Of a stretch of 37,227 bases of DNA, positions 1-7,180 are shown piece by piece. The notes below the pieces were generated by a model. That model was not told the DNA's origin. It made no database searches and saw only the letters and a program-made list of their open reading frames with translations. How positions within the stretch are numbered: position 1 is the stretch's first letter; each line of letters starts with the position of its first letter. The stretch lies in UHGV virus genome UHGV-0368904, one strand, 5' to 3'. This DNA comes from a virus. The position numbers and the translations under genes are program-made.

Positions 1-65
1 AATACTCGTTTTTAACTGAAAAAATAGAGAGCTGGCTTACAGTTCCAAAAAATAAAGTAAAACTA

Positions 66-287
66 ATGAGCGCCATTGACAACGGCTACGAAGTCGAGAA
101 GGAACCATTATATCACGTTTTATTATCAGACAAAGGGGCGACCAACATAGGATATACTTTTTTAAATTTAGCGGGAACAATTGATTTTACGATATGTAAG
201 GAAAAGGTGGATACGTTAACAGAAAATCAAATCAAAGCAATTGATGAACGTTACTGGCCGTTTGCTGTGAAAGTTGATGGTGAATAG
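66..287 (+). CDS. hypothetical early-region protein (73 aa)
   Basis: Intact ORF on the same strand as the neighbouring phage early genes. I recognise no domain. Confidence 0.4.
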   Translation: MSAIDNGYEVEKEPLYHVLLSDKGATNIGYTFLNLAGTIDFTICKEKVDTLTENQIKAIDERYWPFAVKVDGE

Positions 288-473
288 ATGAAACGCAACT
301 GGAAAAGAGTAATAAATAAATTTAGTGGCATTGCAATAATGATTCTTGTAGCAAAAACAACCGTGAGCCATTTCGTGTATGGAAATGACATAACAAGCAG
401 TGACCTTGTTTATTTCCTTTCATGCTCGTTTATTTTGGGATTAGGGCTATATTTAGGAGGTTCCAGTGTATGA
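288..473 (+). CDS. putative small membrane protein (61 aa, two hydrophobic segments)
   Basis: The ORF starts 1 nt after the previous stop, with a GGTGA Shine-Dalgarno 5 nt upstream. It has two hydrophobic stretches, but it could be spurious. Confidence 0.25.
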   Translation: MKRNWKRVINKFSGIAIMILVAKTTVSHFVYGNDITSSDLVYFLSCSFILGLGLYLGGSSV

Positions 474-703
474 GTTATCCAGAAGTTTATATCATAGGAA
501 GGCAAGTCGATGGAGTGTATGTTGAATACTTACATGGAGCAGAGCAAGCCGATTTATTTTTCGATTATGCGATAGCTTGTGATGAAAAAAAACATATGAA
601 TCAAACCAATACAAAAGATGGCGAATGGAAAATTTTAAAGTATGGCAGACCGATAACGGTCGAATTAAACAATAAAAAAGCCAACCGACCACTGGTTGAC
701 TAA
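470..703 (+). CDS. hypothetical protein (77 aa from the ATG at 470; ORF opens at 422)
   Basis: AGGAGG at 455-460 lies 9 nt upstream of the ATG at 470. No domain recognised. Confidence 0.4.
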   Translation: MSYPEVYIIGRQVDGVYVEYLHGAEQADLFFDYAIACDEKKHMNQTNTKDGEWKILKYGRPITVELNNKKANRPLVD

Positions 704-833
704 GAAGAATATTTTACCAGAAAAGTGGTAGCTTGTGATATGTGAGGTTACTTTGCCCCAAACATTGGTCACAATAAAAATATTTTATCATGAGTAAAGA
801 AAGCTGCCAACAAAAAAGCCAGATTGCTCTGGC

Positions 834-865
834 TGTGGATAATGTGTGGATAACTTTGTGGAAAA
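834..865. promoter_or_regulatory. three direct repeats TGTGGATAA / TGTGGATAA / TGTGGAAAA (reverse complement of the DnaA-box consensus TTATCCACA), immediately upstream of the arpU -10 region
   Basis: Two perfect 9-mers and one 8/9 copy at 834, 845 and 857, 11-12 bp apart. A TATTAT -10-like hexamer follows at about 873-878. Confidence 0.35.
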
Positions 866-901
866 GTCGTTATTATTATACCACAAAAGGAGCGATTTCA
901 C

Positions 902-1318
902 TTGATTAAATTGCTAAAAGAAGTAGATTTTCGACAAACAAAAGCGAATGCCAGAAATGTGTTGAAGAATTTTAGACGTTTAGAGCGAATAGCTGGTCGC
1001 TCTTTGATAGATTTAAAATCACCAATTATTACAGATATGCCTAAAAGCCAAAGTCATGGGAACAAAGCAGAAGATGCGCTAGTACAATTAGCAGATGCAG
1101 AAGCAGAAAGAGACGCAATTTTATCTGCGCTTATGGCATTAAGCCTAACTAGCAGACAAATTTTGCATTATAGTTTCTGTGTGCAGGACCATTACTCTAA
1201 TTACAAGATAGCTAGGGAAGTTGGATATTCTGAAAGAAGTATTCAGCGAATGAAATCAGAGGCTCTAATTGAATTTGCCGAAGCGTATCGAAATGGAAAA
1301 ATAATTGCATATAAATAA
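902..1318 (+). CDS. arpU: ArpU-family phage late-gene transcriptional activator (sigma-70 region-4-like, TP901-1 Alt-type)
   Basis: TTG start with AAAGGAG Shine-Dalgarno at 886-892. The C-terminal HTH segment (RQILHYSF...YKIAREVGYSERSIQRMKSEALIEFAEAY) is characteristic of ArpU/Alt. Its position upstream of the packaging genes also fits. Confidence 0.8.
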   Translation: MIKLLKEVDFRQTKANARNVLKNFRRLERIAGRSLIDLKSPIITDMPKSQSHGNKAEDALVQLADAEAERDAILSALMALSLTSRQILHYSFCVQDHYSNYKIAREVGYSERSIQRMKSEALIEFAEAYRNGKIIAYK

Positions 1319-1323
1319 AATTT

Positions 1324-1378
1324 TTGGCGGTTTTTTGGCGGAAAGTTGGCGGTTTTTATTAATATTTAGATGTTATTA
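1324..1378 (+). promoter_or_regulatory. candidate ArpU-dependent late promoter: TTGGCGG x3 at 1324, 1335, 1346 (11-bp phasing) followed by an extended -10 TGtTATTAT (1370-1378), with no -35
   Basis: Read directly from the sequence. In TP901-1 the late promoter sits just downstream of the ArpU-family gene alt and depends on upstream direct repeats, and this layout matches. Confidence 0.45.
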
Positions 1379-1388
1379 TGGTAGTGTC

Positions 1389-1452
1389 GAAAGATAAGGA
1401 GACGAGGGTAAGGCATGCATTACCTTTCTTAGCTCCGTTTCCTTTATCTTTT
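1389..1452 (+). other. long imperfect RNA hairpin about 10 nt downstream of the predicted late transcription start, ending in TCTTTT (attenuator-like)
   Basis: The 5' arm AAAGATAAGGAGACGAGG pairs with the 3' arm CTCCGTTTCCTTTATCTTT (about 17 bp, with bulges and two G-U pairs). The apical loop carries a small 4-5 bp inner hairpin (GGTAA...TTACC). Confidence 0.35.
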
Positions 1453-1696
1453 GAGGCTACCTATAAAAAATAAAGAATAAGGATGTGGAAAGTCCAGTTC
1501 TTTCTGTCTCGTTTAGTCTAGGTAGCAAATATTGCAATACACTTGGCATTAAGCTTACACGTAGACGTACGCCGAAAGCACTTGTCAAGATAGCGCTATG
1601 TAGTTTGCAATGATCACTCACAAATCAGACGTTCTCAAACTAAAAGAAATGGGGTGTAATTCCTCTCTCTTTTTTCTACAGGTTTGTGAGTGTTAA

Positions 1697-1768
1697 TGGG
1701 ATATAGCTTAACTGGTAGAGCAGCGGTCTCCAAAACCGTCGGTATAGGTTCGAGTCCTATTGTTCCGG
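1697..1768 (+). tRNA. trnW: tRNA-Trp (anticodon CCA), phage-encoded
   Basis: Manual fold gives D-arm GCTT/GAGC, anticodon stem GCGGT/ACCGT, loop CTCCAAA (CCA), a 4-nt variable loop, T-arm ATAGG-TTCGAGT-CCTAT and discriminator G. The acceptor stem pairs only with three G-U wobbles. Overall it resembles Firmicute tRNA-Trp. Confidence 0.55.
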
Positions 1769-1952
1769 TAGGTAGCATAGCTACTTAAATAAAAGAATCG
1801 TCAATAAATGTTTCTTACTTTAACGATCGGTTCACCTCCTTTCAGAATTAGCCAGCCTGCGGAAACAGGATAAAGTGGCTAGCAACCTAGTATTGTTAAA
1901 TAAGTGTTAGATTGGCTAGGCAGTCTAATACAAATCTTTAGACTACTCAATA

Positions 1953-1996
1953 AAAATGAGTGGTCTTTTTTTGTACATAAAAAAGCCACTAGACTA
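1953..1996. terminator. hairpin flanked by a T-run and an A-run (bidirectional-terminator-like) inside the late leader
   Basis: AGTGGTCTTTTTTT gtacat AAAAAAGCCACT. Confidence 0.3.
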
Positions 1997-2133
1997 TGGG
2001 ATCTAGTAGCTAGGTAGCATTCGTGCACAATTTTTGTTGATTGCTATTTACAAAAAGGAGTTGCTACCCATAAATAGTATAGCAAGAAGTGATTTATTGA
2101 ATCAAGTACATAAAACAACTAGGAGAGAAAAAT

Positions 2134-2367
2134 ATGAAAAGCTATTGGTATGTATCGCTAACACATAAATATCCACAGTCGAACCGCTCAACTGTTTCGA
2201 TGCGTGTTGTAATGTCTGTGCAGATAAAAAAGAATGCATCTATTGTCGAAATGACGAGAGAAGCCACACCAAAGGAAATTGATGATTGTAAGCTTGTTTA
2301 TTGTGGGCATGGCTATTTTGATGAGAAGAACATTCAAGAAAATATTAAACGAAGCATGAGGGATTAG
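2134..2367 (+). CDS. hypothetical protein, first ORF of the late operon (77 aa)
   Basis: AGGAGAG Shine-Dalgarno. The ORF abuts the methyltransferase gene. Confidence 0.5.
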   Translation: MKSYWYVSLTHKYPQSNRSTVSMRVVMSVQIKKNASIVEMTREATPKEIDDCKLVYCGHGYFDEKNIQENIKRSMRD

Positions 2368-2369
2368 AA

Positions 2370-3692
2370 ATGAAATTTGAAAAGATGAAGTTATCAGAAC
2401 TACACCCTGCTGAATATAATCCAAGGGTTGAATTAAAGTCGGGCATGGAAGAATATGAGAAGCTTAAACAATCCATTTTGGAATTTGGCTTTGTTGATCC
2501 ACCAATTTTTAATAAAAGAACAGGAAATTTAGTTGGTGGCCATCAGCGTGTATCGGTAGCAAAAGATTTAGGAATTGGCGAAATTGAAGTATCCATTGTA
2601 GATTTACCTATCGAAAAAGAAAAAGCTTTAAATAAGATTTCTGGCCAGTGGGATGAAGATAAATTAGTTGAGTTATTGGAAGAGCTTAACACAGATGAAT
2701 TACCTCTAACAGGCTTCAATCAAGAAGAATTAGATGAGCTGTTAGCTGATATGAACAAATTTGAAACTACAGCCGATAGGGTAAAGGCAAATCCAGCAAA
2801 TACCAGTTTATTTGATTCTTTCTTGTTTCCGCCATTTTCTTATCTTGATACAAAAACTAAGCGTTGGTTAGATCGTAAACGCCAATGGAAAGAGCTAGGG
2901 ATCAAGAGTGAGCTTGGCCGTGAAGATAACTTGGTATTCAATCCTAGCATGCAAGCGCCAGGACTAGAAGGAACATCTATTTTTGACCCTGTTCTATGCG
3001 AATTAGGGTATCGTTGGTTTACACCTAAGACAGAAAGCAATATTTTTGATCCATTCGCTGGTGGTTCTGTGCGTGGAATAGTAGCTAAAGTTCTTGGGCA
3101 TAATTACACGGGTATTGATTTGAGAGCAGAACAAATAAGTGCAAATTATGCTAATGCTCGAGAAATTGGTTTAAGTGATATTAATTGGATTTGTGATGAC
3201 AGCTTGAATATAGACCATCATATTGAAGATGAAAGTCAAGATTTGTTATTTACATGTCCGCCGTATGCAGACCTTGAAGTTTATTCAGACGATGAACGAG
3301 ACATTAGTAATATGTCCTATGAAGAATTTGCAGAAGTATATAGTGAAATTTTAAAACGTTCTGCTAAAAAGCTAAAAGATAATCGCTTCGCAGTGGTCAC
3401 CATTTCTGATGTCAGAGATAAAAAAGGCTTTTATCAAGATTTAACTGGTTTGACTAAGAGAGCGTTTAGCACAGAAGGCTTATATTTCTACAATGACATG
3501 ATTTTGTTAAACGCAGTTGGTTCGGGTTCGCTAAGAGCTAGACGTTTGATGAACAATAGAAAAGTAACCAGAATGCACCAAAATGTATTAGTCTTTTATA
3601 AAGGAAATCCGAAAAATATTAATCAACATTTCGAAGTTTTAGAAACATTAGATGATGAACTAGAAAATCTCGTAAATGGACTGGACGAATAA
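2370..3692 (+). CDS. ParB-like nuclease domain fused to a DNA N6-adenine/N4-cytosine methyltransferase (phage orphan methyltransferase)
   Basis: The N-terminus carries a ParB/Srx-type motif (LHPAEYNPR...GGHQRV). The C-terminal part has motif I (DPFAGGSVRG) and a motif-IV-like TCPPY. Confidence 0.85.
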   Translation: MKFEKMKLSELHPAEYNPRVELKSGMEEYEKLKQSILEFGFVDPPIFNKRTGNLVGGHQRVSVAKDLGIGEIEVSIVDLPIEKEKALNKISGQWDEDKLVELLEELNTDELPLTGFNQEELDELLADMNKFETTADRVKANPANTSLFDSFLFPPFSYLDTKTKRWLDRKRQWKELGIKSELGREDNLVFNPSMQAPGLEGTSIFDPVLCELGYRWFTPKTESNIFDPFAGGSVRGIVAKVLGHNYTGIDLRAEQISANYANAREIGLSDINWICDDSLNIDHHIEDESQDLLFTCPPYADLEVYSDDERDISNMSYEEFAEVYSEILKRSAKKLKDNRFAVVTISDVRDKKGFYQDLTGLTKRAFSTEGLYFYNDMILLNAVGSGSLRARRLMNNRKVTRMHQNVLVFYKGNPKNINQHFEVLETLDDELENLVNGLDE

Positions 3693-3729
3693 AAAACAAT
3701 CGTTTATGCTCTGCATGAGGTGAAGGGTA

Positions 3730-3921
3730 ATGACAAATAAAGAATTAAAAAGCATAGCGGAAAACGCTAGAAGCCTATATAGAAGTAATCTAATTACTAG
3801 GGAAGAAGCAAAAGAACGTATCGAACCATTTATTGAAGCGTACAACAAAAAATCAATTGAGATCGCTAAGAAGTTTAACCAGAAACCGAAAACAATCTCT
3901 TTCGTTTCCTTTTTACGATAA
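3730..3921 (+). CDS. hypothetical protein (63 aa)
   Basis: GAGGTGAAGG Shine-Dalgarno. No domain recognised. Confidence 0.45.
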   Translation: MTNKELKSIAENARSLYRSNLITREEAKERIEPFIEAYNKKSIEIAKKFNQKPKTISFVSFLR

Positions 3922-4057
3922 AAAAAGAAGCCGAGTGCGCTAACACTCGACTACTTCAACGAGATACGAATACCCCGAAGACACAGAAGCTGGCATGCAT
4001 GCTCTAAAGGAAGTTCTGTGTCTTTTAGCATTATATAATAGTGCGAGGTATTCTACA

Positions 4058-4246
4058 ATGGAAACATTTGATTATGAAGTTCAACAAGCTTTAGAAAAGC
4101 AAAAGGTTGCGGAAGAAAATAACAAGATTATCAGGGCTGCAAAGGCTCAATGGATAAGTAATTTTAAAGAAGGTAAAGTTCGGTTGGACACTGTTAAAGA
4201 TTTAAAAGATTTAATTGAAATTGAGAGTCACTTAAAAGATGTATGA
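4058..4246 (+). CDS. small coiled-coil protein, moron gene 1 (62 aa from the ATG at 4058; ORF opens at 3995)
   Basis: A TATAAT hexamer at 4034-4039 and a GAGGT Shine-Dalgarno 9 nt upstream of the ATG at 4058. The sequence is charged and predicted helical. Confidence 0.4.
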   Translation: METFDYEVQQALEKQKVAEENNKIIRAAKAQWISNFKEGKVRLDTVKDLKDLIEIESHLKDV

Positions 4247-4331
4247 TTCATTAGGAAAATAATGTATGAATTTGACTGTATCCAATTATTCCTCGATAAT
4301 TGAAGAAGTAATTTATCAAGGAGGTCTTTTT

Positions 4332-5006
4332 ATGTCAATATTCTATAATAATCTAGGAGAATTTCAATGGGTATCTGTTACAGCTCTAATCAGTATACTT
4401 GGGATATTTGTAACTTTAGGATCGACAGTATATACAAACAAGAAAACTATTCGAGCTAATGTTCAATCGAAAACAAGTATTGAATGGATAAACAAGATAA
4501 GAGAATTGTCAGCAGAATTAATAAATAACTATGAATCTTTAGGTCATGCCTCACAAAAATTATATACTTGTATACTAAGTATATCAGCTTTGTCGGATTC
4601 ATATAACAATGAAAAAAAACAAATTCAAGAAGTAGGGTTTGGTGGTAACATGTCAGTTATCAATCGAATGAACTCTTTGCATAAAGAAAAAAAAGAATCA
4701 AGTTTAGAATACAATAAATTCAGTTCTATTACGCTTTCCTTATATAATCAACTCTCTCTTTACTTTGTAGATGACTTAACCAACAATGAAATATTAGAAC
4801 AGTTAGAAAAGCTAAAAGAATTTAATAGACGATTAGCGGATGTATTTAAAGAAGACATAGAAGTAAATCAGACTGAGTTTTCTTATCAAAAAGCTGTAGA
4901 CAATTATTTAAAAATAGTTGATGAGTTATCATATGAAATTGAAAATTTTAGGAAGCTTATAGCGAAGTACATCAAAGATGAATGGAATGCCATTCAGAAA
5001 AAATAG
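4332..5006 (+). CDS. N-terminally membrane-anchored coiled-coil protein, moron gene 2 (224 aa from the ATG at 4332; ORF opens at 4266)
   Basis: AAGGAGGT Shine-Dalgarno 7 nt upstream of the ATG at 4332. One TM helix (WVSVTALISILGIFVTLGSTVY). The gene is visibly AT-richer than its neighbours, and I recognise no domain. Confidence 0.5.
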   Translation: MSIFYNNLGEFQWVSVTALISILGIFVTLGSTVYTNKKTIRANVQSKTSIEWINKIRELSAELINNYESLGHASQKLYTCILSISALSDSYNNEKKQIQEVGFGGNMSVINRMNSLHKEKKESSLEYNKFSSITLSLYNQLSLYFVDDLTNNEILEQLEKLKEFNRRLADVFKEDIEVNQTEFSYQKAVDNYLKIVDELSYEIENFRKLIAKYIKDEWNAIQKK

Positions 5007-5052
5007 AAAACAAAACTCAACTATCAACATGAATGCGAGGTGGTGTTAATGG

Positions 5053-5910
5053 ATGGCTAGAAAAAGAGATCCACGTCGTGACCAGGCTAAAGAAATTTGG
5101 TTAAGGTCAAACGGTAAAAAGATTCTTAAAGATTTAGCAAATGAACTAAATGTTTCAGATTCTCAAATTAGAAAATGGAAATCGATTGATAAATGGAGTG
5201 CTGAATTGAAAGGTAATGTTACCAATGCCAAAGGTAACGTTACTAATCGAGGAGGCGCTCCATTTGGTAATCAGAACGCAGTAGGCAACAAAGGTAATAG
5301 CCGAGCCTCGCCACCACTTGGTAATAAGAACGCTATTAAAACTGGCGAATACGAAACAATATTTGCCGATATGTTATCTGATGAAGAAAAGGACATCTAT
5401 TCTAATCTGAATGATGATCCTTTTTTTATTTTGAATGATGAGATTCGCTTATTAAAGGTACGGCAGTTTAGAATGATGAAACGTATCAAAGAAGCTGAAA
5501 AAGGACTAAATGATGAAGAAGTTGAACGGTTACAACAGCTAAGGAAAATTAAAACACCAGTTGAAAAAGACGGTAGAAAGCTAGAAATAAAACGTGAAGT
5601 TATGCAAGATGTTCAAGTAACTCGTAAAACATTTAGAAAGTTAGATGACATCTTAGCTATTGAAGATGCGTTGACTCGTGTTAGTAATCAATTAACTAAG
5701 TCAATTAAGCAACTGAACGAATTATCATTGAGTCAAGACAAGAAAGTCATGCTTAATCGTCAAAACGAAAAACTTGCTGCTGAAATTCGGCGACTCAAAA
5801 TTCAGAATGGTGACGATATTCCAGAAGTTGAAGATGATGGGTTTATTGCAGCTATCAATAATATAGTTAATGATAATGAGGTGTGGAATGATGACAATAT
5901 CGAAACGTAA
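5053..5910 (+). CDS. terS: terminase small subunit
   Basis: An N-terminal HTH, a glycine/asparagine-rich repeat segment (KGNVTNAKGNVTNRGGAPFGNQNAVGNKGN) and a C-terminal coiled coil. It sits directly upstream of terL. Confidence 0.8.
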   Translation: MARKRDPRRDQAKEIWLRSNGKKILKDLANELNVSDSQIRKWKSIDKWSAELKGNVTNAKGNVTNRGGAPFGNQNAVGNKGNSRASPPLGNKNAIKTGEYETIFADMLSDEEKDIYSNLNDDPFFILNDEIRLLKVRQFRMMKRIKEAEKGLNDEEVERLQQLRKIKTPVEKDGRKLEIKREVMQDVQVTRKTFRKLDDILAIEDALTRVSNQLTKSIKQLNELSLSQDKKVMLNRQNEKLAAEIRRLKIQNGDDIPEVEDDGFIAAINNIVNDNEVWNDDNIET

Positions 5911-7180
5911 AACATCTGTTGTTTTCAAATTCACATCGTTTTCTAAAAAGCAGAAGCAAGTTTTATCTTGGTGGAAACATCCCAAGTATAAAGATAAAGA
6001 AGCTATTATTTGTGATGGGTCTGTTCGTGCTGGTAAAACAGTTATTATGTCGCTATCTTACATCTTTTGGGCAATGGAAAGCTATGATGAAGATCAATTC
6101 GGAATGGCTGGTAAAACAATTGGTTCATTAAGGCGTAACGTTATACGGCCATTAAAAAAGATGCTTAGGGGTCGTGGCTATACTGTTAAAGACAATCGAA
6201 CAGATAATATCCTTGAAATAACTAAAAATAATAAAACAAATTATTTCTTTTTATTTGGTGGTAAAGATGAAGCTTCGCAAGATTTGGTGCAAGGTCTAAC
6301 TGCAGCTGGATTTTTCTTTGATGAAGTGGCGCTTATGCCACAATCATTTGTAAACCAAGCAACAGCACGTTTATCTGTAGATGGTGCTAAATCATGGTTT
6401 AACTGTAATCCTGCTGGACCTCATCATTGGTTCAAACTTGAATGGTTAGACAAGCTAACAGAAAAGCATGCTATTCGCATTCACTTTACTATGGAAGATA
6501 ATCCTTCGCTTAGTGAAAGAGTAATTAATCGTTACAAACGAATGTATTCAGGAGTTTTTTATGACAGGTATATTCGTGGATTATGGGTATTATCTGAAGG
6601 AATTATTTTTGACAACTTTGATGCGGAAACGATGGTAAAAGAACCTCCCAAAAACGCTATAGCTAGTCAATATTACGTATCTATAGACTATGGAACTCAA
6701 AATGCTACAGTCTTTTTGTTATGGGCTAAATATGAAGAAAATTGGTATTGCATTGATGAGTATTATTACTCTGGTCGTGATGAATCAAAACAAAAAAGTG
6801 ATGATAAATATTTGAAAGACCTGAATTCTTTTGTAGAAGGAAAAAAAGTTAAAATTATTGTGGATCCGTCAGCAGCTTCGTTTATTGCATTACTTAGAGA
6901 GAATGGATACAAAGTTATAAAAGCCAAAAATAATGTTATTGACGGCATTCGTGCAACTCAAACAGCAATGAATGAAGGAAAGATTTATTTTTCTAGTAAC
7001 TGTAAAAATTTATTTGCAGAATTTGCATCATATATTTGGGATGAAAAAGCGGCAGATAGAGGCGAAGACAAGCCTATAAAACAACATGATCACGCGTGTG
7101 ATGCGCTAAGATACTTTGTTTACACCATTTTAAATAAATCACGAGGAATTAAGCTACAGAGCGTGAAGGGGGTTATTTAA
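5888..7180 (+). CDS. terL: terminase large subunit (PBSX/terminase_3-like)
   Basis: Walker A motif (DGSVRAGKT) and a C-terminal nuclease-like region. The ORF opens at 5870, with likely starts at ATG 5888/5891 after GAGGTG. It overlaps the end of terS. Confidence 0.9.
   Translation: MMTISKRKTSVVFKFTSFSKKQKQVLSWWKHPKYKDKEAIICDGSVRAGKTVIMSLSYIFWAMESYDEDQFGMAGKTIGSLRRNVIRPLKKMLRGRGYTVKDNRTDNILEITKNNKTNYFFLFGGKDEASQDLVQGLTAAGFFFDEVALMPQSFVNQATARLSVDGAKSWFNCNPAGPHHWFKLEWLDKLTEKHAIRIHFTMEDNPSLSERVINRYKRMYSGVFYDRYIRGLWVLSEGIIFDNFDAETMVKEPPKNAIASQYYVSIDYGTQNATVFLLWAKYEENWYCIDEYYYSGRDESKQKSDDKYLKDLNSFVEGKKVKIIVDPSAASFIALLRENGYKVIKAKNNVIDGIRATQTAMNEGKIYFSSNCKNLFAEFASYIWDEKAADRGEDKPIKQHDHACDALRYFVYTILNKSRGIKLQSVKGVI

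What the first reader, a model, noticed from the sequence alone, without database searches (positions are those of the whole stretch)
1320..2133. ArpU-type late promoter candidate followed by a long structured leader that carries a tRNA-Trp
Immediately after the arpU stop there are three TTGGCGG copies exactly 11 bp apart (1324, 1335, 1346), followed by an extended -10 (TGtTATTAT, 1370-1378) and no -35. That is the layout expected for an activator-dependent late promoter, as seen downstream of alt in TP901-1. The first late ORF only begins at 2134. The roughly 750-nt leader in between contains several structured elements.
- A roughly 60-nt imperfect hairpin ending in TCTTTT about 10 nt after the predicted transcription start. 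It resembles the lambda PR'/tR' arrangement that needs antitermination.
- A tRNA-Trp(CCA) at 1697-1768.
- Further hairpins at 1922-1946 and 1953-1996.
- Three copies of TAGGTAGCA (near 1518, 1770, 2013).
Together this looks like an undescribed regulatory architecture: a late regulator gene, its target promoter, an attenuator-like structure, and a tRNA delivered in the late transcript.
Basis: partly seen in the sequence, partly recalled or inferred. Interest (0 to 1): 0.6.

Follow-up and report, generated by a model that had tools for sequence, protein, structure and literature searches.

The report
Late-promoter leader carrying a tRNA cargo
In this Enterococcus faecalis prophage the known ArpU binding repeats sit directly beside a late promoter, and the ~750-nt leader it most likely transcribes is a slot for structured RNAs, here a tRNA-Trp; the late-gene 'start site' published for a sister phage looks like a tRNA-processing cut, which would resolve the puzzling ~640-bp gap between activator site and start site.

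Summary

**Already known.** The three TTGGCGG repeats are the experimentally proven ArpU operator of phage phiFL2A (Quiles-Puchalt 2013). The operator here is identical, and ArpU is 136/138 identical.

**New.**
- An extended -10 lies a fixed 18 nt after the last repeat in enterococcal lineages with different box sequences.
- A covarying hairpin starts within about 3 nt of the predicted start site.
- A canonical, CCA-less tRNA-Trp lies 310 nt downstream.
- In 80 close relatives, tRNAs occur 67 times downstream of the operator and never upstream.
- The same slot holds tRNAs of at least 8 anticodons, tRNA-like elements, or ROOL RNA.
- 69 of 70 tRNA-bearing leaders end in an intrinsic terminator before the first late gene.
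- The published phiFL2A start site (G, -118 of terS) falls 3 nt after the discriminator base of that phage's leader tRNA. No promoter-like sequence precedes it, so it is probably a processing end or a reverse-transcriptase stop.

**Not supported.** The first hairpin is not a lambda tR'-like terminator; it has no U-tail.

**Open.** How late transcription passes the leader terminator.

The operator is known; the architecture is a new variant. Interest 0.6.

The parts
902..1318 (+). arpU, the late-gene activator
   Evidence: TIGR01637 134 bits. 136/138 identical to phiFL2A ArpU. The C-terminal ~60 aa are predicted to fold like sigma region 4.
1324..1352 (+). ArpU operator: three TTGGCGG boxes at 1324, 1335 and 1346 with an 11-bp phase. 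Box 3 lies at about -40 to -34.
   Evidence: Identical to the phiFL2A repeats that are required for ArpU binding and activation (PMC3753634).
1371..1379 (+). Extended -10 (TG-T-TATTAT) of the predicted ArpU-dependent late promoter
   Evidence: Lies 18 nt after the last box in enterococcal lineages with different box sequences. The homology shared with all relatives ends just after it, at 1393.
1382..1393 (+). Second -10-like hexamer TAGTGT plus conserved initial transcribed sequence TCGAAAG. Predicted start at about G1384-U1387.
   Evidence: The pattern TAnnAT-nn-TAnnnT-CGAAAG is conserved from Enterococcus to Companilactobacillus and Weissella. The start site is inferred, not mapped.
1387..1454 (+). 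5'-terminal hairpin of the leader RNA
   Evidence: -40.1 kcal/mol, z = -6.4. Of 16 consensus pairs, 3 show compensatory changes between the two sequence types. No U-tail.
1519..1527 (+). TAGGTAGCA copy 1, in the conserved middle part of the window-type leader
   Evidence: Role unknown.
1611..1695 (+). Long-range helix (CACUCACAAAUC / GGUUUGUGAGUG) enclosing a small hairpin and a U-rich stretch. It ends 1 nt before the tRNA.
   Evidence: The same helix is formed by different sequence in phiFL1C and phiFL2A (GUCACUUGCAGAC / GUUUGCAAGUGAC).
1697..1768 (+). tRNA-Trp(CCA), with no encoded CCA end
   Evidence: ARAGORN. Rfam 60.9 bits. Among 14 sequence variants in relatives, 99.3% of cloverleaf pairs are kept.
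1769..1787 (+). Trailer hairpin UAGGUAGC-AUA-GCUACUUA, starting at the first base after the discriminator. Contains TAGGTAGCA copy 2.
   Evidence: -7.9 kcal/mol, z = -4.8. Present after every tRNA type, with 96.6% of cells paired and one compensatory pair. The phiFL2A RACE 5' end maps to its third base.
1785..1815 (+). Conserved trailer block TTAAATAAA...ATCGTCAATAAATGTTTCT
   Evidence: Shared by cassettes carrying different tRNAs. Function unknown.
1904..1931 (+). 11-bp hairpin in the structured segment between the trailer and the terminator
1940..1973 (+). Intrinsic terminator: 10-bp stem at 1940-1966 followed by U7
   Evidence: -15.5 kcal/mol, z = -4.9. 69 of 70 tRNA-bearing leaders have such a terminator within 400 nt after the tRNA.
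1984..2019 (.). Hairpin GCCACTAG...CTAGTAGC, terminator-like on the minus strand, followed by TAGGTAGCA copy 3
   Evidence: The same element recurs twice in the L007 leader and at the deletion junction in L026.
2121..2367 (+). RBS AGGAGAG and the first protein-coding gene after the leader (77 aa, start at 2134)
   Evidence: Homologous first ORFs occur in E. thailandicus and E. durans prophages.

Best explanation
**The promoter (known operator, inferred core).** The region is the ArpU-dependent late promoter of an E. faecalis temperate phage. ArpU has a predicted sigma-region-4-like DNA-binding domain. It binds the three TTGGCGG boxes, and box 3 sits where a -35 element would be. This recruits host RNA polymerase to the extended -10 at 1371-1379.

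**The start site (inferred).** Transcription starts at about 1384-1387.

**The leader RNA.** The primary transcript is a highly structured leader of about 750 nt. In order it contains:
- a 5'-terminal covarying hairpin;
- a second long helix;
- the tRNA-Trp;
- a conserved hairpin directly abutting the tRNA 3' end;
- a structured segment closed by an intrinsic terminator;
- the late genes.

**Processing (inferred).** The tRNA has no encoded CCA and is followed by U. By the established Bacillus subtilis pathway it should be excised by RNase P at the 5' side and RNase Z at the 3' side. This would release a usable tRNA-Trp late in infection. It would also leave the downstream late mRNA with a 5' end buried in the trailer hairpin, which should protect it from 5'-exonuclease.

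**The slot.** The slot between the conserved left block and the trailer is exchangeable. Relatives carry other tRNAs, tRNA-like elements or ROOL RNA there.

**Read-through.** Late genes are expressed by read-through of the cassette terminator. How that happens is not established.

**Status of each step.**
- Shown in the literature: ArpU binds the boxes, and the boxes are required.
- Shown here: conservation, spacing, structures, and the distribution of tRNAs.
- Inferred: the start site, the processing enzymes, and the benefit of the tRNA.
For: **1. The operator transfers directly from phiFL2A.**
- The boxes are identical and ArpU is 99% identical to phiFL2A.
- In phiFL2A, EMSA and reporter assays show the boxes are required (PMC3753634).

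**2. The promoter lies next to the boxes.**
- The spacing from the last box to TGnTAnnAT is 18 nt in enterococcal lineages with boxes TTGGCGG, TGGCGG or TTGTAGGG.
- The same core follows a third ArpU class with TTATAC[AC] boxes.
- Homology among E. faecalis phages runs from arpU to 1393 and then breaks.
- ArpU's C-terminal domain is predicted to superpose on sigma region 4, the -35-binding domain: TM 0.65-0.80, rmsd 1.4-2.4 A. There is also a weak sigma70-ECF profile hit.

**3. The published phiFL2A 5' end looks like a processing site.**
- The G at -118 of terS is L002 position 3623.
- That is 3 nt after the discriminator A3620 of that phage's leader tRNA.
- No promoter-like site lies upstream of it.
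- The RACE kit used does not distinguish 5'-PPP from 5'-P ends.

**4. tRNA distribution.**
- Zero tRNAs in 242 kb upstream of the operator against 67 in 219 kb downstream. All are on the + strand.
- In the reverse query, 60 of 61 contigs carrying this tRNA-Trp have the core promoter 210-320 nt upstream.

**5. RNA structures.**
- The 5' hairpin has z = -6.4 and 3 compensatory pairs.
- The helix upstream of the tRNA is conserved with different sequence in relatives.
- The trailer hairpin follows every tRNA type.
- The whole leader folds with z = -4.7.

**6. No alternative promoter.** No sigma-70-like promoter is found on the + strand between 1400 and 1697.
Against: - No transcript data exist for this phage. 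The start site and processing are inferred.
- The related RinA system was mapped with 5'-monophosphate-depleted RNA. That gave a start site more than 155 bp from its boxes (PMC3152322). Action at a distance therefore has a precedent in this protein superfamily.
- A good intrinsic terminator lies between the tRNA and the late genes: 1940-1966 in the window and 3680-3707 in phiFL2A. The model needs read-through that is not explained.
- TGG codon use gives no reason to need extra tRNA-Trp: 1.06% of late codons and 1.17% of early codons. The benefit of the tRNA is therefore unproven.
- The one relative with almost no leader (L026) is a defective prophage whose first ORF is a portal fragment. It does not prove that the minimal promoter is sufficient.
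- The loci are related to each other, so the counts are not independent events.
Confidence: 0.7

Rival explanations
1. This is the published model carried over to this phage. ArpU bound at the boxes activates a separate promoter several hundred bp downstream, at the tRNA trailer (about 1771 here, -118 of terS in phiFL2A). The hairpins and the tRNA would then lie upstream of the late transcript, made only by read-through from arpU.
For: - 5' RACE in phiFL2A gave a single 5' end at -118 of terS.
- The authors inferred a terminator between arpU and the terS promoter.
- For RinA phages, a start site more than 155 bp from the boxes survived 5'-monophosphate depletion.
Against: - The mapped G lies 3 nt after a tRNA discriminator base and inside a hairpin. 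No -10-like sequence precedes it.
- The sequence upstream of it is a different tRNA in each phage, so a promoter there could not be conserved.
- The boxes keep a fixed 18-nt distance to an extended -10.
- ArpU's DNA-binding domain is predicted to be sigma-4-like. That fits a -35-position activator, not an enhancer acting over 640 bp.
Confidence: 0.12
2. The tRNA cassette is an independent moron with its own promoter and terminator, expressed from the prophage. It was inserted by chance between arpU and the late genes and is not functionally tied to late transcription.
For: - The cassette ends in a terminator in 69 of 70 leaders.
- The arpU-terS interval is a mosaic hot spot. It also holds toxin-antitoxin RNAs, a group II intron and extra ORFs.
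- In phiFL1C a promoter-like site follows the cassette terminator.
Against: - No sigma-70-like promoter is found on the + strand between the late promoter and the tRNA.
- All 67 tRNAs are co-oriented with the late genes.
- Conserved structured RNA runs continuously from the start site to the tRNA.
- The phiFL2A terS transcript extends back exactly to the tRNA 3' end.
Confidence: 0.08
3. Late expression is controlled by termination and antitermination in the leader. Most transcripts stop at a leader terminator, giving a short RNA plus the tRNA. Only polymerase modified at the ArpU promoter, as in lambda Q at PR'/tR', or by a leader RNA element, reads through into the late genes.
For: - Terminators lie between the promoter and the late genes in nearly all relatives.
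- In phiFL2A, Pcad-driven read-through did not reach terS, but ArpU-dependent transcription did. There is no room for a terminator between the arpU stop codon and the boxes.
- The initial transcribed sequence and a second -10-like hexamer are conserved far beyond what a hairpin alone needs.
Against: - The first hairpin (1387-1454) has no U-tail and is not a terminator.
- Foldseek finds only sigma-4-like matches for ArpU, and no Q-like fold.
- The second hexamer sits at about -4 to +2, not where lambdoid pause elements lie.
- A strong promoter with a leaky terminator explains the reporter data without antitermination.
Confidence: 0.1

Closest known systems
ArpU-dependent late (terS) control region of Enterococcus phage phiFL2A (Ltr superfamily; Quiles-Puchalt et al. 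2013, PMC3753634)
   Same: - ArpU is 99% identical.
- The three 7-nt repeats directly after the stop codon are identical.
- The extended -10 is of the same kind, and late genes lie downstream.
   Different: - The paper places the start site 118 bp before terS, about 640 bp from the repeats. Here that position is read as the 3' processing site of a leader tRNA.
- The paper does not describe a tRNA, a 5' hairpin or a cargo slot.
- The window carries tRNA-Trp and a different hairpin type. phiFL2A carries a weaker tRNA-like 'Arg' element scoring 42.8 bits.
RinA-dependent late promoter of staphylococcal phages 80alpha and phi11 (PMC3152322)
   Same: An activator gene is followed immediately by direct repeats, then a long intergenic region containing a terminator, then terS. 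The same unexplained gap exists between the binding site and the mapped start.
   Different: - It is a different Ltr family and host.
- The 80alpha start site was mapped after removing 5'-monophosphate RNA.
- Whether those leaders hold a tRNA is not known from this work.
tRNAs co-transcribed with mRNA and released by RNase P and RNase Z: the E. coli thrU-tufB operon, the phage T4 tRNA cluster, mitochondrial tRNA punctuation, MALAT1-mascRNA (from my own knowledge)
   Same: A tRNA or tRNA-like fold embedded in a longer transcript serves as a processing signal. It defines the ends of the neighbouring RNAs.
   Different: - Here the tRNA sits in the 5' leader of a phage late operon, under an activator-dependent promoter.
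- A dedicated hairpin sits at the new mRNA 5' end.
- Processing has not been shown experimentally.
ROOL and GOLLD RNA loci in prophages 'often near tRNA islands' (PMC5737381, PMC12286853)
   Same: Close relatives carry ROOL in exactly this slot, followed by tRNA-like elements. Co-transcription with tRNAs was already suspected.
   Different: - The window itself has no ROOL or GOLLD.
- I found no link between ROOL and an ArpU-dependent late promoter in the papers I searched.
Lambda PR' / 6S RNA / tR' with Q antitermination (from my own knowledge)
   Same: The late regulator gene lies directly upstream of its target promoter. A non-coding leader and a terminator lie before the late genes.
   Different: - ArpU is predicted to be sigma-4-like, not Q-like.
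- Its sites lie at and upstream of -35, not between -35 and -10.
- The promoter is activator-dependent rather than constitutive.
- The hairpin nearest the promoter is not a terminator.

Membership tests
ArpU/Ltr-dependent late promoter region (as defined in phiFL2A) | ArpU-family regulator gene immediately upstream | tested here: met
   TIGR01637 134.1 bits against a cut-off of 43.1. 136/138 identical to phiFL2A ArpU.
ArpU/Ltr-dependent late promoter region (as defined in phiFL2A) | Three 7-nt direct repeats directly distal to the regulator's stop codon | tested here: met
   TTGGCGG at 1324, 1335 and 1346, identical to phiFL2A.
ArpU/Ltr-dependent late promoter region (as defined in phiFL2A) | The repeats bind ArpU and are required for activation | not testable with these tools
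   Shown for the identical sequence in phiFL2A by EMSA and a blaZ reporter (PMC3753634).
ArpU/Ltr-dependent late promoter region (as defined in phiFL2A) | Packaging and morphogenesis genes downstream on the same strand | tested here: met
   terS at 5053, terL at 5870, portal at 7180.
Bacterial tRNA (tRNA-Trp) | Cloverleaf that scores above the family threshold, with anticodon CCA | tested here: met
   ARAGORN. Rfam RF00005 60.9 bits against 29. Anticodon loop CUCCAAA. 99.3% of pairs kept in 14 variants.
Bacterial tRNA (tRNA-Trp) | The tRNA is expressed, processed and aminoacylated | not testable with these tools
   No transcript or charging data. The window copy has U1-G72 where most relatives have U1-A72.
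Intrinsic terminator or attenuator (claimed for hairpin 1387-1454) | GC-rich stem followed directly by a U-tract | tested here: not met
   The stem is followed by GGCUACCUAUAAAAAA in the window type and by GGUCACUUGC in the phiFL2A type. The terminator scan does not call it.
Intrinsic terminator (1940-1973) | GC-containing stem followed directly by a U-tract | tested here: met
   10-bp stem plus U7, -15.5 kcal/mol, z = -4.9.
Lambda Q-type promoter-proximal antitermination | Regulator with a Q-family fold | tested here: not met
   Foldseek against the PDB returns sigma region 4 domains only.
Lambda Q-type promoter-proximal antitermination | -10-like pause element in the initial transcribed region, with the binding site between -35 and -10 | tested here: inconclusive
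   A conserved second TAnnnT lies 2 nt after the -10, at about -4 to +2. The boxes lie at -62 to -34.
Lambda Q-type promoter-proximal antitermination | Terminator-resistant elongation that depends on the regulator | not testable with these tools
   Only an indirect hint from the phiFL2A Pcad read-through control.
ROOL / GOLLD large RNAs | Match to the Rfam covariance model | tested here: not met
   No hit at E <= 1 in window 1-5000. Relatives L007 and L082 do match ROOL at 263-264 bits.

The most novel reading that the evidence does not exclude
The most novel reading has three parts.

1. The 'distant' start sites reported for Ltr-type late activators are RNA-processing ends. This would hold for ArpU and perhaps for RinA. 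The real promoter abuts the operator.

2. The long leader is a dedicated expression bay for structured RNA cargo: tRNAs with fast-changing anticodons, tRNA-like elements, ROOL, rli28. The cargo is excised by the host tRNA-processing enzymes.

3. Nearly every cassette ends in an intrinsic terminator. ArpU-initiated polymerase would therefore be termination-resistant. That would make ArpU a sigma-4-like, promoter-loaded antiterminator, a functional analogue of lambda Q in Gram-positive phages.
Probability: 0.15. Interest if true: 0.85.

Novelty: new variant of a known kind. Interest (0 to 1): 0.6.

Why it matters
**The activator-to-start-site gap.** The field has an unexplained gap between where Ltr-type late activators bind and where late transcripts were mapped to start. 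It is more than 155 bp for RinA, by the authors' own remark, and about 640 bp for phiFL2A ArpU. A tRNA-processing explanation removes the gap for ArpU. One primary-end mapping experiment can test it.

**Unannotated phage tRNAs.** Temperate enterococcal phages carry a single tRNA, or a tRNA-like element, in a fixed place under late control. This tRNA is not annotated in the phiFL1C, phiFL2A and phiEf11 GenBank records. The finding bears on why phages carry tRNAs: codon supply, escape from tRNA-targeting defence, or simply RNA punctuation.

**ROOL RNA.** ROOL has a solved nanocage structure but no known function. In some relatives it sits in an ArpU-driven late leader. That gives a promoter, a timing and a genetic handle for studying it.

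Tried and rejected
- **Known RNA families.** An Rfam scan of 1-5000 at E <= 1 found only the tRNA and a chance miRNA-like hit on the hairpin. The leader contains no known riboswitch, T-box or leader family.
- **Codon supply.** TGG is 1.06% of late codons and 1.17% of early codons. There is no enrichment, so I do not favour this as the reason for the tRNA.
- **L026 as a minimal leader.** L026 looked like a natural minimal leader that would prove the promoter position. Its first ORF is a portal fragment, so it is a defective prophage. I downgraded it.
- **The small 'terminator' before the tRNA (about 1650-1675).** It has a weak 4-bp stem, z = 0.15, and lies inside a larger conserved helix. I do not treat it as a terminator.
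- **A three-hairpin attenuator at 1904-1966.** The middle hairpin (1923-1946, 7 AU-rich bp) is much weaker than its competitors. It was not pursued.
- **TAGGTAGCA as one protein-binding motif.** Rejected. In relatives, copy 2 varies to TAAGTGGC and similar while keeping its pairing.
- **Small ORFs in the leader.** The 31-42 aa ORFs lack convincing ribosome-binding sites.
- **Literature not available.** The supplement of PMC3753634 and the TP901-1 Alt paper are not held. The comparison with TP901-1 could not be checked.
Full report
**What the window is.** It is a temperate Enterococcus faecalis siphophage of the phiFL1/phiFL2/phiEf11 kind. The ORF at 902-1318 is an ArpU-family regulator (TIGR01637, 134 bits). 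It is 136/138 identical to the ArpU of phiFL2A. Downstream on the same strand lie a 77-aa ORF (2134), a ParB-N/DNA methylase (2370), terS (5053), terL (5870) and portal (7180).

**Check of the observation.** Every listed feature exists.
- TTGGCGG occurs at 1324, 1335 and 1346. There are 6 copies in the window against 1.74 expected, and three of them are phased at 11 bp.
- The extended -10 is TG(1371-1372)-T-TATTAT(1374-1379), one base right of the stated position. No -35 hexamer is present.
- The region 1380-1461 folds at -40.1 kcal/mol, z = -6.4.
- ARAGORN calls tRNA-Trp(CCA) at 1697-1768. Rfam gives 60.9 bits.
- TAGGTAGCA occurs three times against 0.13 expected.
- Between 1900 and 2020 the stable structures are an 11-bp hairpin (1904-1931), an intrinsic terminator (1940-1966 plus U7; -15.5 kcal/mol, z = -4.9), and a hairpin at 1984-2011 that is terminator-like on the minus strand.

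**What is already known.**
- Quiles-Puchalt et al. 2013 (PMC3753634) showed that deleting phiFL2A arpU abolishes late transcription and phage production.
- They showed that ArpU is the only phage protein needed to activate a terS reporter.
- They showed that the three 7-nt repeats directly after arpU are required for activation and for ArpU binding in EMSA.
- The repeats in the window are identical to those of phiFL2A, phiFL1C and phiEf11.
- The pairing of regulator and target repeats is therefore not new.

**Where the promoter is.** The same paper maps one 5' end by RACE, 'a G located 118 bp upstream of the ATG of terS'. In the phiFL2A sequence this is L002 position 3623, about 640 bp downstream of the repeats.
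1. Across Enterococcus species the boxes change with the ArpU sequence: TTGGCGG, TGGCGG, TTGTAGGG. The last box still stays 18 nt from a TGnTAnnAT element. A third, divergent ArpU class (TIGR01637, 47 bits) with TTATAC[AC] boxes is followed by the same core.
2. Homology among E. faecalis phages runs from arpU to 1393 and then breaks into mosaic leaders.
3. ArpU's C-terminal ~60 residues are predicted to fold like sigma region 4, the -35-binding domain. The model has pLDDT 79; matches have TM 0.65-0.80 and rmsd 1.4-2.4 A. There is also a weak sigma70-ECF profile hit. Box 3 sits at about -40 to -34.
4. The published 5' end lies 3 nt after the discriminator base (A3620) of a tRNA in the phiFL2A leader (ARAGORN 3547-3621, Rfam 3548-3620).
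   - It lies inside a hairpin, and no promoter-like sequence precedes it.
   - The Roche RACE kit used does not separate primary from processed ends.
   - I therefore read this end as an RNase Z product, possibly trimmed by 2 nt, or as a reverse-transcriptase stop at the tRNA.
   - The authors themselves noted for RinA that the boxes lie more than 155 bp from the mapped start and called the mechanism 'more complex'. That case used 5'-monophosphate depletion, so it remains the main support for the rival view.

**The leader is a cargo slot.**
- I collected 80 viral contigs with ArpU at least 96% identical.
- tRNAs occur 0 times in 242 kb upstream of the operator and 67 times in 219 kb downstream. 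All are on the late strand.
- They include Trp-CCA, Asn-GTT, Lys-TTT, Glu-TTC, Asp-GTC, and weaker 'Arg/Gln' calls.
- Other Enterococcus species and other Lactobacillales add Ile, Cys, Lys, Asn and Arg.
- None of these tRNAs is annotated in the phiFL1C, phiFL2A or phiEf11 GenBank records.
- Searching the other way, 66 viral contigs contain this tRNA-Trp. Of the 61 with enough upstream sequence, 60 have the core late promoter 210-320 nt upstream.
- Where ARAGORN finds no tRNA, the slot holds one of two things:
  - tRNA-like elements with an acceptor stem, D arm and T arm but no proper anticodon arm;
  - a ROOL RNA (263-264 bits in L007 and L082) followed by such elements.
- rli28, RatA and a group II intron also occur in these leaders.

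**Anatomy of the window's leader.**
- *5' hairpin (1387-1454).* It begins within about 3 nt of the predicted start. Of its 16 consensus pairs, 3 change on both sides between the two sequence types. A hairpin in the same place occurs even in Weissella, with a compensating change: GTCGAATGAT...ATCATTCGAC. It has no U-tail, so it is not a terminator. A 5'-terminal stabiliser is the simplest reading. The strong conservation of TAnnnT-CGAAAGAT is not explained by that alone.
- *Long helix (1611-1695).* It ends 1 nt before the tRNA. In phiFL1C and phiFL2A it is formed by different sequence.
- *tRNA-Trp.* It is canonical. Fourteen variants keep 99.3% of cloverleaf pairs, and all keep the loop CUCCAAA. 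It lacks an encoded CCA and is followed by U.
- *Trailer hairpin.* UAGGUAGC-AUA-GCUACUUA starts at the very next base. It follows every tRNA type, sometimes with altered but still pairing sequence such as GTGG/CCAC. This explains TAGGTAGCA copy 2.
- *TAGGTAGCA copy 3.* It belongs to a separate repeated hairpin element.
- *Whole leader.* It folds with z = -4.7.

**The terminator problem.**
- 69 of 70 tRNA-bearing leaders have a terminator-like hairpin plus T-run within 400 nt after the tRNA. In the window it is at 1940-1973, and in phiFL2A at 3680-3707.
- In phiFL2A the terS transcript reaches back across this hairpin to the tRNA 3' end. Read-through therefore happens.
- Pcad-driven transcription through a mutant arpU did not reach terS. 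There is no room for a terminator between the arpU stop and the boxes.
- Two explanations are possible. The late promoter may simply be much stronger than Pcad and the terminator leaky. Alternatively, ArpU-initiated complexes may resist termination.
- No Q-like fold was found for ArpU. I give the antitermination reading about 10-15%.

**What the tRNA is for.** This is inference.
- TGG use is ordinary, at 1.06% of late codons, so codon supply is not supported.
- Several facts fit a role as a processing signal that also delivers a usable tRNA:
  - the anticodons in the slot are diverse;
  - some elements in the same slot lack an anticodon arm;
  - the conserved flanks fit;
  - the RACE end fits.
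- Many of the anticodons seen (Lys-UUU, Glu-UUC, Gln, Asn, Asp, Arg, Trp) are classes known to be targeted by anticodon nucleases. That statement rests on my own knowledge. Counter-defence is therefore a reasonable second benefit, but it is untested.

**Verdict.** It is wrong that the operator is undescribed, and wrong about the first hairpin being an attenuator. The architecture as a whole is a new variant of known kinds. Its parts are the operator, an adjacent promoter, a covarying 5' hairpin, exchangeable RNA cargo, a hairpin-capped mRNA 5' end and a cassette terminator. It offers a concrete, testable reinterpretation of a published start site.

Noticed in passing
L007 3810-4388 and L082 3803-4381 (same position as window 1697-1768): ROOL RNA (RF03087, 263-264 bits) sits in the late-leader slot about 325 nt after the predicted ArpU-dependent start. 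It is followed by two tRNA-like elements, the trailer hairpin and a terminator. L007, L011, L013 and L014 have no + strand ORF of 60 aa or more for 2.2 kb after arpU.
   Followed up: partly
Leaders of L021, L035, L052, L002, L005, L043: One tRNA scaffold, with acceptor TGGCGTG...CACGCCA and the same T arm, appears in several forms. The Lys-UUU and Glu-UUC forms are only 2-3 nt apart. There is also an Asp-GUC form, and 'Arg/Gln' calls whose 'anticodon' loop has only 5 nt. This looks like rapid anticodon switching, or decay into tRNA-like processing signals.
   Followed up: partly
L009, L015, L060 leaders, positions ~380-530; L002 3375-3435; L016: A second tRNA-like element (ATCGCTG-TGGCGGAACAGGTAGACGC...GCAAGGTGCAAATCCTTGC-CAGCGAT) has an acceptor stem, D arm and T arm. 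In place of an anticodon arm it has a variable insert of up to about 220 nt. Neither ARAGORN nor Rfam calls it.
   Followed up: no
L128-L191 (33 contigs), e.g. L132, about 300-420 nt upstream of the tRNA-Trp: A divergent 155-aa ArpU-family protein (TIGR01637, 47 bits) is followed by four 11-bp-phased TTATAC[AC]-type boxes. After these come the same core promoter and tRNA-Trp leader. Regulator-plus-box modules are therefore swapped in front of a common core.
   Followed up: partly
Window 1382-1393 and the equivalent positions in L084-L123: The initial transcribed sequence TAnnnT-CGAAAGAT(TAG) is conserved from Enterococcus to Companilactobacillus and Weissella, where ArpU is only 25-38% identical. 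Hairpin formation alone does not require this much conservation, and it remains unexplained.
   Followed up: partly
L052 4320-4499 and 4543-4629; L060 4159-4338; L098 3976-4158 and 4203-4289: rli28-like sRNA (RF01492, 99-148 bits) lies in L052, L060 and L098, and a RatA antitoxin RNA (RF01776) lies on the opposite strand in L052 and L098, in the same arpU-to-terS interval. L084 has a group II intron there (5006-5298).
   Followed up: no
Window 1978-2025; L007 leader ~1615-1660 and ~1775-1815; L026 junction: There is a repeated element AAAAAA(G)CCACTAG-N8-CTAGT(A/G)GC-TAGGTAGCATTCGTG. It is terminator-like on the minus strand, although no minus-strand gene converges on it. It marks module boundaries and the deletion junction in L026.
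   Followed up: no
Window 2370-3692: The second gene after the leader fuses a weak ParB N-terminal domain match to an N6/N4 DNA methylase domain. If the promoter model holds, this gene would be under late control.
   Followed up: no
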